Assembly (NCBI GenBank): GCA_000004695.1
Contig: CM000154.2
Span: forward strand, 1,056,001-1,120,000
Reading direction: 5' to 3'
From: Dictyostelium discoideum
Taxonomy: Eukaryota
Length of the DNA: 64,000 bases
In this document: positions 9,470 to 12,440 of the stretch, one piece after another
Position numbering within the stretch: the first letter of the stretch is position 1
Layout: every line of letters starts with the position of its first letter
Notes under the pieces: generated by a model
The model's database searches: none
Seen by the model: only the letters and a program-made list of their open reading frames with translations
What the model was told of the DNA's origin: nothing
Position numbers and translations under genes: made by a program

Positions 9470-12440
9470 TTAATATTTTTTTATTTTTATTATTTTTATT
9501 ATTATTATTATTACTATTATTATTATTATTATTATTATTATTATTATTATTATTATTATTACTATTATTATTATTATTAGTAATACCTTGTGGAATATCT
9601 TTAAATAAATCACGAGTATTACCAGAATAAAGACTATAGAGTGTTTTTAATGGTGAACCAGTTGGTAATGAGGAATTTGCATTGTACGGCCATAAACTTC
9701 AGCACCTAATTGATGAGCTAAAACTAAAGCATGAAACCATAACTCATTATCCAAAGCAAATTGATGAGCAGCAATCATATCACCTTGAGTCATTAAAGAT
9801 TGAACTCTATTCAATAGTTAACCAAAATCAGCATCGGATCTACCAATATTCTTTTGAGTTGGTTGGAATAAAGTTGGTGTAGTTTTTTTATTATTATTAT
9901 TATTATTATTATTATTATTATTATTATTATTATTATTATTATTATTATTATTATTATTATTATTATTATTATTATTATTATTATTATTATTGTTATTATT
10001 ATTATTATTATTATTATTAATTGGCATCATACCTTGTTGTTGTTGTTGTTGTGGTGGGCCGTTAAACATTGAATTACCACCATTATATCCTTGATAATTA
10101 TTATTATTATTGTGGTTATTATTAAATTGATCATTTGGTGAAATTGGGAAATGATTTGAAAAATCTGATAATGAATGATTTCTAATAACTTGATTACCAC
10201 CAAATTGTGATGGTTGTTGATATTGAATGGTGGGATTTGTTGATTAGATGATGACATTCGAATTGATGGTGATCCACTACCAACATTATTATTAAAGAAT
10301 GGAATAGCTCCATTGCTACCATCCAATGATGTATTATTATTATTATTATTATTATTTTGTTGTGGTGGTGGTAGTATGTGAGGTTGTGGTTGATTTTGTG
10401 GTGGTGCGTGGTTGGGTTGATGTTGTTGTGGTGGTGGTGTGTGTGATTGTGATGGTGCCATATTTGAATAACTATGATGTTGATGTTGATGTTGATGTTG
10501 ATGTTGATGTTGATGTTGATGTTGATGTTGATGTTGATGTGTTGGATTAGGTGTTCCAACGCGTGGTGATCCTTGAGCTACACGTTGATCCTTGTGATGG
10601 ACTATGAGAAAATGTTGGAATGATCATTTGTGGTGGACTATTAATAACTGGAATCATTTGTGGTGCTTGTTGGTTATTATTGTTATTGTCAGATGATGGC
10701 ACACTACTACTACTTTTACCAACACTACCACTATTATTTGAAGTAACTGGAGTAGGTGGAATACCAACCAGATGGTGAGTTACTAAATGGAATGATTGGT
10801 GGAGCTGGTTTGGTTGAGAAGTTGATGAAACAGGGTTTGTAGATATATGCTATTATTTACATTATCATCTGAGCTAAAGAATGAAGATATCTCCTTTTCC
10901 TTCTCCCCACTATTACTATTACTATTATTATTATCGCTATCGCTATTGCCATTGCTATTGCTATTGCTATTGCTATTGCTATTGCTATTGCTATTGCTAT
11001 TGCTATTGCTATTGCTATTGCTATTGCTATTGCTATTGCTATTGCTATTGCTATTGCTATTGCTATTGCTATTTATATTATACTTGATACACGATCCAAT
11101 AAAAGTTTATTTGAATCTAAATTCAAAATTGCTCTAATTAAAATATCATCAGATGGTAATTTACCACACATTACAATGATTGCATTTGATCTCTTTTGTG
11201 ATAGAACACTAATAACTTTTTGAATTGGTTTCGATTTAACTGGTCCACCACCAATTGATGTTTCACTACCAACAACTGGCGATGTAATAGTTTCATTCTT
11301 TTTGAAGGGGTAATTGGTGATTTTGTTGGTTGTAATTTATATTTAACTGGTTCTTCTTGATTACTACTTGCAACATTTAATGATAATTCATGAATTTCAT
11401 TTTCATTTGATTTTTCACCTTTAACAATTGTTGATAAATCTTTAATTGTACAATTATTATTTTTAATTGTATTATTATAAATTGAATTATTATTTATATT
11501 ATTTGTATTTTTTGTATTTTTTGTATTATTTGTATTATTTGTATTATTTGTATTATTATTTAAAGTATTTGAAATTGTAATTGGTGATAATAAACAAGAT
11601 AAATTTGGTTTTGGCGTTGATTTTTTATTTGATTGCTATTGTTGTTGTTGTTGTTGTTGTTGTTGTTGTTGTTGTTGTTGTTGTTGTTGTTGTTGTTGTT
11701 GTTGTTGTTATTGTTGAGTTTGTTTTTTGTTGAGTTAATATCTTTTTAAACTTTCTTCAATTTCAGGAGTTGATAAAAATTCAGATCAATTCCCAATTTT
11801 GTTTATTTGAATTATTACGAGCATAATTGAAGAAATGATTACAAAGTGCAGCAGCTGTACCCTTGAAAGTTTAATTGGAGTTTAAGGTAGCTTTCTTATT
11901 TATTCTTTATTGATCTTTTGATGGTGATGAGGGTGTTGGATTATCAGAAGTTGATGATAAATCAGAATCAACTTTGTTGCTATTATTATTATTATTATTA
12001 TTATTATTATTATTATTATTATTATTATTATTATTATTATTATTATTATTATTATTATTATTATTATTAGCACCAACAATTGGTACTTGTCTATTACTAC
12101 CACCTAAAATCTTGAAACCTTTTGTAAAGATTGAAGGAATATATGAATCTGATGTTGATAATTTATTATTTGATGGGAATGATGTAATTCTCTCTGCAAA
12201 TGTATCTAATTGATTCAAATAAAAAATGATCTACTCTAAAAACGAAACCCTTTTCAAAGAATGATAATTGTTGAACACCACCACTGCTACAATCAAAACC
12301 ATCATTGAGTTGAAAATTACCATTGAAACCAAATTCAATAAATTCACTTTGATAATATGTTGGAAGCTGGCCACTTGATGTGAAACATTGTTGATTTAAA
12401 CCTTTATTAATCTTTGAAAAGTCATTTCTGTTTGTATCAA
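9470..12440 (-). CDS. Sec16-like ER-exit-site scaffold gene (central conserved domain recognisable), broken by at least four frame disruptions in this sequence; boundaries approximate.
   Basis: Minus-strand translation around 9600-9880 gives ..LMTQGDMIAAHQFALDNELWFHALVLAHQLGAEVYGRTMQ.. then, after a frame slip, ..PTGSPLKTLYSLYSGNTRDLF... Compare human SEC16A ..LLLSGRKKEALQCAQEGQLWGPALVLASQLGDQFYVDTV..LVAGSPLRTLCLLLAGQ... Further slips fall at about 10240, 12215 and within the track ORFs 9818..10069, 10027..10461, 10194..10559 and 11907..12218, which are in mutually different frames. Low-complexity N/Q/P/H tracts surround it. Confidence 0.55.
10934..11073. repeat. (ATTGCT)n hexanucleotide repeat of about 23 units inside the Sec16-like locus, plus a (GATGTT)n block at 10476..10541
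   Basis: Seen directly. Track ORFs 10881..11087 (CYCYCY) and 10847..11137 (poly-L) are artefacts of it. Confidence 0.9.

What the first reader, a model, noticed from the sequence alone, without database searches (positions are those of the whole stretch)
9470..12440. Sec16-like gene with several frame disruptions
The Sec16 central conserved domain is unmistakable (..ALDNELWFHALVLAHQLGAEVYGRTMQ.. / ..GSPLKTLYSLYSG..), yet reading it needs a frame change inside the domain. At least three more changes occur upstream (near 10240, near 12215, and among the overlapping track ORFs). Sec16 is normally an essential single-copy gene, so this locus is either a pseudogenised paralogue or a region of indel errors concentrated in low-complexity repeats. 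The intact housekeeping genes in the same window (ogdh, rpl22, cdcD, UBR, Sib) show errors are not uniform across the sequence.
Basis: seen in the sequence. Interest (0 to 1): 0.55.

Follow-up and report, generated by a model that had tools for sequence, protein, structure and literature searches.

The report
Scrambled Sec16 pseudogene fragments in Dictyostelium
The "broken Sec16 gene" is not a gene: it is a few decayed scraps of Sec16, mixed with scraps of a formin, an importin-alpha and an EGF-repeat gene, inside a 6.8 kb piece of junk DNA that Dictyostelium discoideum carries and two close relatives lack. It is an ordinary pseudogene patchwork.

Summary
Window 9886-9594 (- strand) matches the first 77 of 298 positions of Pfam TPR_Sec16 (E 2.9e-10). 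It is 71% identical to D. purpureum Sec16 (E 2.3e-25), and the reading frame does change inside it.

It is not a Sec16 gene.
- Only scraps of Sec16 are present. The beta-blade region (PF12932) and about three quarters of the helical domain are missing.
- The end of the conserved domain (Sec16 aa 1467-1519) lies at 12221-12063, upstream of the domain's start. A ForC-type formin fragment sits between them.
- The "frame change near 12215" is a junction with the 3' end of an EGF_TEN-family gene.
- The shift inside the domain is a net 10-nt deletion, and a TAA replaces a conserved Leu.

These scraps lie in a 6,766-bp block (5952-12717). The block also holds an N-terminally truncated, frameshifted importin-alpha copy. 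It is absent from a clean empty site in D. citrinum and D. cf. discoideum. The window is D. discoideum (assembly GCA_054883475.1, AX4-like). AX4 has a 1,992-aa Sec16 listed under an unrelated accession.

Sequencing error is not a sufficient explanation. I could not get read-level or second-assembly confirmation. Interest is low.

The parts
5952..12717 (.). 6,766-bp lineage-specific block. It is absent from the orthologous intergenic site (between the MIT-domain gene and the folliculin-like gene) in D. citrinum and D. cf. discoideum. It holds all the fragments listed below.
   Evidence: The flanks are collinear with L007 and L011 and abut there. The exact empty site is GATAATCTGAAAT|TCAATTGTTTT. 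There is a 3-nt AAT microhomology and no TIR, LTR or long TSD. No tRNA gene was found in the window.
9594..9886 (-). Sec16 fragment equal to D. purpureum Sec16 aa 1204-1304, the first helices of the TPR_Sec16 domain. It carries an in-frame TAA at 9820-9818 and a net 10-nt deletion at about 9680 that shifts the frame.
   Evidence: Pfam PF12931 positions 1-77/298, E 2.9e-10. phmmer E 2.3e-25. tblastn HSPs in frames -1 and -3. DNA alignment.
10133..10326 (-). Sec16 disordered-region remnants (D. purpureum Sec16 aa 947-967 and 984-1003) in two different frames.
   Evidence: tblastn, paired HSPs, E 3.8e-4.
9860..10020 (-). (AAT)n tract sitting where the Sec16 beta-blade / PF12932 region (about aa 1035-1203) should be.
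   Evidence: Sequence. No tblastn match for that part of P0020 in the window.
10852..10899 (-). 'EKEISSFF' motif resembling the repeated (E/K)KD(I/V)SSFF motif of the Sec16 N-terminal region. The match is weak.
   Evidence: tblastn E 9.8, plus reading the sequence by eye. Weak evidence.
11115..11600 (-). ForC-type formin fragment covering the linker and the start of FH2. An internal deletion of about 38 aa spans the FH2 lasso and the intron site. The rest of FH2 is missing.
   Evidence: blastn 75% to the D. purpureum formin gene. tblastn 62-66% over 56-69 aa, with a collinear upstream HSP. Pfam FH2 E 0.0015. D. purpureum formin domains and intron.
12063..12221 (-). Sec16 fragment equal to D. 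purpureum Sec16 aa 1467-1519, the C-terminal end of the conserved domain. It is displaced upstream of the formin piece.
   Evidence: tblastn 64-67%, E 1.3e-14. blastn 78% over 142 nt.
12213..12631 (-). Copy of the 3'-terminal module of EGF_TEN-family genes. Its end at 12213-12221 is the 'frame change near 12215'.
   Evidence: 81% aa identity to the C-terminus of P0017. 84-88% nt identity to three copies in D. discoideum locus L009.
7770..9009 (-). Importin-alpha-like ARM-repeat fragment, equal to residues ~187-466 of a 528-aa importin alpha. The IBB domain and the first ARM repeats are missing, and there is one frameshift near 8640.
   Evidence: Overlapping ORFs in two frames. Pfam Arm E 4.5e-14. 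The PDB alignment to rice importin alpha-1a, E 9e-43, runs through the repaired junction.
7003..7094 (+). Short stretch resembling the promoter and first codons of EGF_TEN-family genes.
   Evidence: blastn 76-78% to four gene starts in L009.

Best explanation
Window 9470-12440 is non-coding wreckage, not a gene. It contains two separate, decayed pieces of Sec16, a piece of a ForC-type formin and the 3' end of an EGF_TEN-family gene. All are on the minus strand and are joined by trinucleotide-repeat tracts.

This wreckage is part of a 6,766-bp block (5952-12717). The block also carries an N-terminally truncated, frameshifted importin-alpha copy. It lies in the intergenic region between a MIT-domain gene and a folliculin-like gene of D. 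discoideum.

The most likely history (inferred) is as follows. Duplicated pieces of unlinked genes were joined and inserted at this site by end-joining or template-switching repair, or were copied from an already mosaic region elsewhere. This happened after D. discoideum split from D. citrinum and D. cf. discoideum. The pieces have since decayed neutrally through deletions, frameshifts, a nonsense codon and microsatellite expansion.

The functional Sec16 is a different gene elsewhere in the genome. The short 'genes' that automatic annotation places here (161, 504, 102 and 481 aa) are artefacts that bridge the lesions with tiny pseudo-introns.
For: Shown:
- Sec16 homology is significant but partial: PF12931 positions 1-77/298. 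The D. purpureum Sec16 pieces aa 947-1003, 1204-1304 and 1467-1519 match, while aa ~1035-1203 and 1305-1466 are absent.
- The order is scrambled: aa 1467-1519 lies at 12221-12063, upstream of a formin fragment at 11600-11115 and of aa 1204-1304 at 9886-9594.
- The lesions are not of the sequencing-error type: a net 10-nt deletion and a TAA in place of a conserved Leu.
- 12631-12213 is 84-88% identical to three EGF_TEN gene 3' ends.
- The neighbouring importin-alpha copy lacks about 185 N-terminal residues and has a frameshift.
- The block is absent at a precise empty site in two related species.
- The D. purpureum Sec16 locus has quite different neighbours: DOCK, AD, SDR and TopoII.
- Other ORFs in the window, about 33 kb in total, are intact, and ogdh is identical to AX4.
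- Short-read contigs agree with the window at 99.9-100%.
- AX4 has one 1,992-aa Sec16, XP_646771.1, under an accession about 10,000 away from ogdh XP_636906.1 (PMC4419792 Table S1).
- The only model consistent with the recorded 102-aa 'gene' needs a 47-nt intron inside a conserved helix.
Against: I obtained no independent copy of the block. Five exact look-ups of the broken ORFs found nothing on record. I could not fetch the AX4, ACTFIR or ACTFIW loci. Some single-base frame changes inside repeat tracts could therefore still be assembly errors.

The polarity (insertion here versus deletion in the relatives) rests on two relatives whose branching order I did not establish. The D. purpureum contig ends 633 nt from the MIT gene.

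I did not see the intact Sec16 of this strain. Its existence rests on a paper's table for AX4. Several pieces of the block (segC at 11740-11890, 5952-7000, 7207-7580) remain unidentified. Transcription was not examined.
Confidence: 0.85

Rival explanations
1. A real, intact Sec16 (or Sec16-like) gene whose frame is broken only by indel errors of the assembly, concentrated in low-complexity repeats.
For: Many frame changes fall next to trinucleotide or homopolymer tracts. This is a new chromosome-level assembly whose sequencing technology I could not establish. I found no independent read-level data for the block.
Against: No repair of single-base errors can restore the missing beta-blade region, the missing three quarters of TPR_Sec16, or the scrambled order with formin and EGF_TEN pieces in between. 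The shift inside the domain is a 10-nt deletion, and there is a substitution-type stop. About 33 kb of other ORFs are unbroken. Short-read contigs match the window. The EGF_TEN piece is 12-16% diverged from the other copies fetched, so it is not a mis-joined read.
Confidence: 0.03
2. In-situ decay. The block is what remains of ancestral genes that once stood here, for example the ForC-type formin that lies 4 kb from the MIT gene in D. purpureum. The relatives lost it by a clean deletion.
For: In D. purpureum a ForC-type formin is a near neighbour of the MIT orthologue. The branching order of D. discoideum, D. cf. discoideum and D. citrinum was not established, so one deletion in a common ancestor of the latter two is possible.
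Against: The D. purpureum formin lies on the other side of MIT, so the positions are not collinear. Sec16 has a different syntenic home in D. purpureum. None of the pieces in the block is complete, and they come from at least four unrelated genes. The same exact empty site occurs in both relatives.
Confidence: 0.1
3. A functional chimeric transcript or new gene (non-coding RNA or short peptides) assembled from captured exons.
For: All identified pieces except the short EGF_TEN 5'-like stretch at 7003-7094 lie on one strand. The base composition (25-39% GC) is still coding-like rather than intergenic. Gene callers placed four models here.
Against: No open frame longer than 144 aa exists in 9470-12440. 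The models need implausible 35-47-nt introns. No conservation could be shown, because the relatives lack the block. I examined no expression data.
Confidence: 0.03

Closest known systems
Sec16 (COPII / ER-exit-site scaffold; Pfam PF12932 Sec16 + PF12931 TPR_Sec16), e.g. D. purpureum XP_003288899 (1854 aa) and D. discoideum AX4 XP_646771.1 (1992 aa)
   Same: Clear sequence homology of three short stretches: the disordered region, the first helices and the last part of the conserved domain. Identity to D. purpureum Sec16 is 57-83%.
   Different: No beta-blade region. Only about a quarter of the helical domain, plus a displaced C-terminal end. The order is scrambled, the frame is broken and there is an in-frame stop. 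The genomic neighbourhood differs from that of the D. purpureum gene.
Duplicated (non-processed) pseudogene fragments and chimeric pseudogenes formed at duplication or repair junctions
   Same: Partial copies of several host genes with disabling lesions, present at a lineage-specific site, joined without transposon hallmarks, with 3-nt microhomology at the outer junction.
   Different: At least four unrelated parents are packed into 6.8 kb, and the identified pieces are nearly all on one strand. I did not locate the parent loci or any other copy of the mosaic in this genome.
Gene-fragment capture by transposons (Pack-MULEs, Helitrons)
   Same: A patchwork of exon-derived scraps from unlinked genes in one insertion.
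   Different: I found no terminal inverted repeats, long target-site duplication, hairpin or transposase / RT / helicase ORF. Copy number in the genome was not testable.

Membership tests
Functional Sec16 gene | Sequence homology to the Sec16 central conserved domain | tested here: met
   PF12931 E 2.9e-10. D. purpureum Sec16 E 2.3e-25, 71% identity.
Functional Sec16 gene | Beta-blade / 'Sec16' region (PF12932) immediately upstream of the helical domain | tested here: not met
   No Pfam or tblastn match for D. purpureum Sec16 aa ~1035-1203. An (AAT)n tract occupies that position.
Functional Sec16 gene | Complete helical TPR_Sec16 domain (298 profile positions) | tested here: not met
   Only positions 1-77 are matched. 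D. purpureum Sec16 aa 1305-1466 is absent. Aa 1467-1519 is present, but 2.2 kb upstream and out of order.
Functional Sec16 gene | One uninterrupted, collinear reading frame (allowing for spliceable introns) | tested here: not met
   About ten frame breaks or stops with overlapping frames and no room for introns. A 10-nt deletion and a TAA within the domain.
Functional Sec16 gene | Conserved genomic context with orthologues | tested here: not met
   D. purpureum Sec16 lies between AD-domain and SDR genes next to DOCK and TopoII. Here the neighbours are MIT and folliculin-like genes, and the relatives have nothing at this site.
Duplicated pseudogene fragment | Disabling lesions relative to functional homologues | tested here: met
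   Truncations, rearrangement, frameshifts and a nonsense codon.
Duplicated pseudogene fragment | An intact parent gene exists elsewhere in the same genome | tested here: inconclusive
   AX4 has a 1,992-aa Sec16, XP_646771.1 (PMC4419792 Table S1). The strain is AX4-like by ogdh. I could not fetch the parent locus in this assembly.
Duplicated pseudogene fragment | Absent from the orthologous position in related species | tested here: met
   Empty site in D. citrinum (L007) and D. cf. discoideum (L011).
Duplicated pseudogene fragment | Not expressed as a functional protein | not testable with these tools
   No expression data were available.
Transposon-mediated gene capture (Pack-MULE / Helitron-like) | Terminal repeats, target-site duplication or element-encoded ORFs | tested here: not met
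   Only simple-sequence repeats. There is a 3-nt AAT overlap at the junction and no element ORF in six-frame translations.
Assembly / sequencing artefact | Lesions are single-base homopolymer indels, and the sequence is otherwise identical to a real gene | tested here: not met
   A 10-nt deletion, a nonsense substitution, and 12-16% nt divergence from the EGF_TEN copies fetched. The rest of the window is frame-intact.

The most novel reading that the evidence does not exclude
The 6.8 kb block is the footprint of a single event that stitched together pieces of at least four unlinked genes and inserted them at a clean site. Candidate mechanisms are re-integration of an extrachromosomal circular DNA, multi-template switching repair, or an unrecognised fragment-capturing mobile element in Dictyostelium. 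The circularly permuted order of the Sec16 pieces would fit re-integration of a circular DNA.
Probability: 0.1. Interest if true: 0.55.

Novelty: new member of a known kind. Interest (0 to 1): 0.22.

Why it matters
Its main value is for annotation. The four gene models recorded at this locus (161, 504, 102 and 481 aa) are artefacts and should be flagged as pseudogene fragments. Otherwise they may be taken for a second Sec16 or a new importin in D. discoideum.

It also gives a cleanly bounded example of a patchwork insertion made of fragments of several host genes, with an exact empty site in two sister taxa. That could be used to study how such mosaics arise in an extremely AT-rich, repeat-rich genome. 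It says nothing new about Sec16 function.

Tried and rejected
1. Introns as the cause of the frame changes: rejected. The frames overlap, there is no room for GT..AG introns, and the only model reproducing the recorded 102-aa product needs a 47-nt intron inside a conserved helix.

2. The search for homologous proteins with the repaired Sec16 piece found nothing. The tool also missed D. purpureum proteins that share 11-13-mers with my queries (against 25, 41). I therefore gave its negative results no weight.

3. Exact look-ups of five broken ORFs, meant to find independent contigs, all failed.

4. Segmental duplication of the Sec16 locus together with its neighbours: rejected. D. purpureum Sec16 has DOCK, AD, SDR and TopoII neighbours, not importin or formin.

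5. Transposon hallmarks: none. There are no TIRs or LTRs and no tRNA gene.

6. My by-eye reading of 7377-7207(-) as a SCY1-like kinase N-terminus got no support from Pfam or PDB, so I make no claim for it.

7. The + strand ORF-like stretch at 6000-6480 and segC (11740-11890) gave no Pfam or PDB match.

8. A literature search for a description of these assemblies or of this locus found nothing.

Full report
**Source and setting.** The window is very AT-rich (24% GC). An exact protein look-up places it on a 5,288,541-bp chromosome-scale record, CM142511.1, of assembly GCA_054883475.1. A cluster look-up shows that this record belongs to a Dictyostelium discoideum assembly with locus-tag prefix ACTFIT. 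The C-terminal 794 residues of its ogdh product are identical to those of AX4. Two other D. discoideum assemblies differ at 4 residues, D. cf. discoideum at 7-10 and D. citrinum at 14. The strain is therefore AX4-like.

On the minus strand, ORF 9647-9814 reads ..LLNRVQSLMTQGDMIAAHQFALDNELWFHALVLAHQLGAEVYGRTMQ and then runs out of frame. NSSLPTGSPLKTLYSLYSGNTRDLFKDIPQ follows in another frame.
- The two pieces joined match Pfam TPR_Sec16 (PF12931) at E 2.9e-10, but only profile positions 1-77 of 298.
- A full HMMER scan of 1.84 billion representative proteins gives three dictyostelid Sec16 proteins as best hits. These are D. purpureum XP_003288899 (1854 aa, 71% identity, E 2.3e-25), Heterostelium album (61%) and Synstelium (53%).
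- Along the coding-like minus-strand path from about 12424 to 9590 the frame changes or stops roughly ten times. The frames overlap and leave no room for introns.

**It is not a gene.** I aligned D. purpureum Sec16 to the window with tblastn.
- Sec16 aa 1204-1272 maps to 9886-9680 and aa 1276-1304 to 9680-9594, in a different frame.
- Aa 947-967 maps to 10326-10264 and aa 984-1003 to 10195-10133, again in different frames.
- Aa 1467-1519 maps to 12221-12063.
- Nothing matches aa ~1035-1203, the beta-blade region (Pfam PF12932). An (AAT)n tract stands there.
- Nothing matches aa 1305-1466, which is most of the helical domain.
- The end of the domain therefore lies 2.2 kb upstream of its beginning.
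- A TAA (9820-9818) aligns with a leucine of D. purpureum Sec16.
- The frame change inside the domain is a net 10-nt deletion in the DNA alignment. The three dictyostelid proteins all have the same length at that place (sequences printed).

**What lies between and beside the Sec16 pieces.**
- Window 11600-11115 is a piece of a ForC-type formin. It shows 75% nt and 62-66% aa identity to a D. purpureum formin carrying ForC_N, FH3 and FH2 domains, with a collinear weaker match upstream.
- That piece lacks about 38 residues around the FH2 lasso and the intron site. It also lacks all the rest of FH2.
- Window 12631-12213 is 84-88% identical in DNA to three copies of the 3'-terminal module of EGF_TEN-family genes in another D. 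discoideum locus. It is 81% identical in protein to the C-terminus of ACTFIR_001252.
- That homology stops at 12213-12221, exactly where the Sec16 aa 1467 match begins. The 'frame change near 12215' is therefore a junction of two unrelated fragments.
- Downstream, the neighbouring 'gene' at 9009-7770 is an importin-alpha copy. It aligns to residues ~187-466 of a 528-aa importin alpha (E 9e-43). It lacks the IBB domain and the first ARM repeats, and it needs a frameshift repair near 8640.

**A lineage-specific block.** The orthologous loci of D. citrinum (L007) and D. cf. discoideum (L011) are collinear with the window on both sides. They have nothing between the MIT-domain gene and the folliculin-like gene.
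- The empty site reads GATAATCTGAAAT|TCAATTGTTTT.
- In the window the same two halves end at 5951 and resume at 12718. The block is therefore 5952-12717, 6,766 bp, with at most a 3-nt AAT overlap.
- No terminal inverted or long direct repeats were found, only simple-sequence repeats. There is no tRNA gene in the window.
- D. purpureum Sec16 lies in a different neighbourhood, with DOCK, AD-domain, SDR and TopoII genes.

**Error versus decay.** Sequencing or assembly error cannot explain the missing domains, the scrambled order, the 10-nt deletion or the nonsense substitution.
- The rest of the window carries about 33 kb of unbroken ORFs. These include 1712-, 1503-, 949-, 943-, 914- and 794-aa frames with the expected Pfam domains.
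- Independent short-read contigs agree with the window at 99.9-100% over ogdh.
- The EGF_TEN piece is 12-16% diverged from the copies I could fetch, so it is not a mis-joined read.
- I could not obtain independent sequence for the block itself. Five exact look-ups of its ORFs found nothing, and the AX4 locus was out of reach. A few single-base changes inside repeats could still be errors. The block's presence in other D. discoideum isolates remains untested.

**The intact Sec16.** Schlacht and Dacks (PMC4419792, Table S1) list a single D. discoideum Sec16, XP_646771.1, of 1,992 aa. The ogdh gene, 35 kb from this block, is XP_636906.1. I infer from accessions about 10,000 apart that the intact gene is not at this locus. 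I did not see the sequence itself.

**Annotation artefacts.** The collection records four gene models here: 12740-11907 (161 aa), 11824-9818 (504 aa), 9793-9355 (102 aa) and 9000-7204 (481 aa). The only GT..AG model reproducing the 102-aa product removes 47 nt (9743-9697) from inside a conserved Sec16 helix. The 481-aa and 504-aa products also need 35-50-nt 'introns'. These models bridge lesions and do not describe genes.

**Mechanism.** What is shown is a patchwork of decayed partial copies of at least four unlinked genes, at a site that is empty in two relatives. What is inferred is insertion by end-joining or template-switching repair, or duplication of an already mosaic region, followed by neutral decay and microsatellite growth at the junctions. 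The alternative is in-situ decay of ancestral genes with deletion in the relatives. It is kept at about 10% because the branching order of the three taxa was not established, and because D. purpureum has a ForC-type formin 4 kb from its MIT gene, although on the other side.

**Verdict.** The label 'Sec16-like gene' is not. This is an ordinary, if unusually compact, mosaic of pseudogene fragments. Its value lies mainly in correcting annotation.

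Noticed in passing
window 9132-9268: A minisatellite of about 17 copies of an 8-nt unit (CATTAACA / CATCAACC variants). It lies between the Sec16 fragment and the importin-alpha fragment.
   Followed up: no
window 7770-9009 (-): The neighbouring ARM-repeat 'gene' is itself a broken, N-terminally truncated importin-alpha copy with a frameshift near 8640. The recorded 481-aa model fuses it to unrelated downstream sequence.
   Followed up: yes
window 6000-6480 (+): A coding-looking + strand stretch (..LYGDSDFIVYSLKPIDDGDDDGRELHKESRTISYNQYLFENIF.. 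followed by poly-Q) inside the block. It has no Pfam or PDB match and no recorded gene model.
   Followed up: partly
window 7207-7377 (-): The stretch ..SFPYNIGPIVTGYVGKSIWTLHSGTKKENGSAVSIFSFDIN* looked to me like the N-terminus of a SCY1-like kinase. Pfam and PDB gave no match, so this remains a recollection only.
   Followed up: partly
L009 7248-7549, 12886-13313, 21304-21660: The ~400-nt module copied at window 12631-12213 occurs three times in a cluster of EGF_TEN genes of D. discoideum ACTFIR. Twice it is at gene 3' ends. It may be a family-specific terminal exon, or a repeat that gene predictors absorb.
   Followed up: partly
L008 6592-9865 (D. purpureum): A ForC-type formin lies 4 kb from the MIT-gene orthologue in D. 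purpureum. In D. discoideum a fragment of such a formin lies in the block on the other side of the MIT gene. This may be coincidence, or a hint that the fragment has a local origin.
   Followed up: partly
L002 1-944: The first 944 nt of short-read contig SRR26869257_615663 do not align to the window upstream of ogdh, although the rest is 99.9% identical. This may be a structural difference or a chimeric contig.
   Followed up: no
tool behaviour: the search for homologous proteins returned no AX4 orthologue for the MIT or folliculin-like neighbours. It also missed D. purpureum Sec16 and the formin despite shared 11-13-mers. Negative results from it are unreliable for these low-complexity proteins.
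   Followed up: yes
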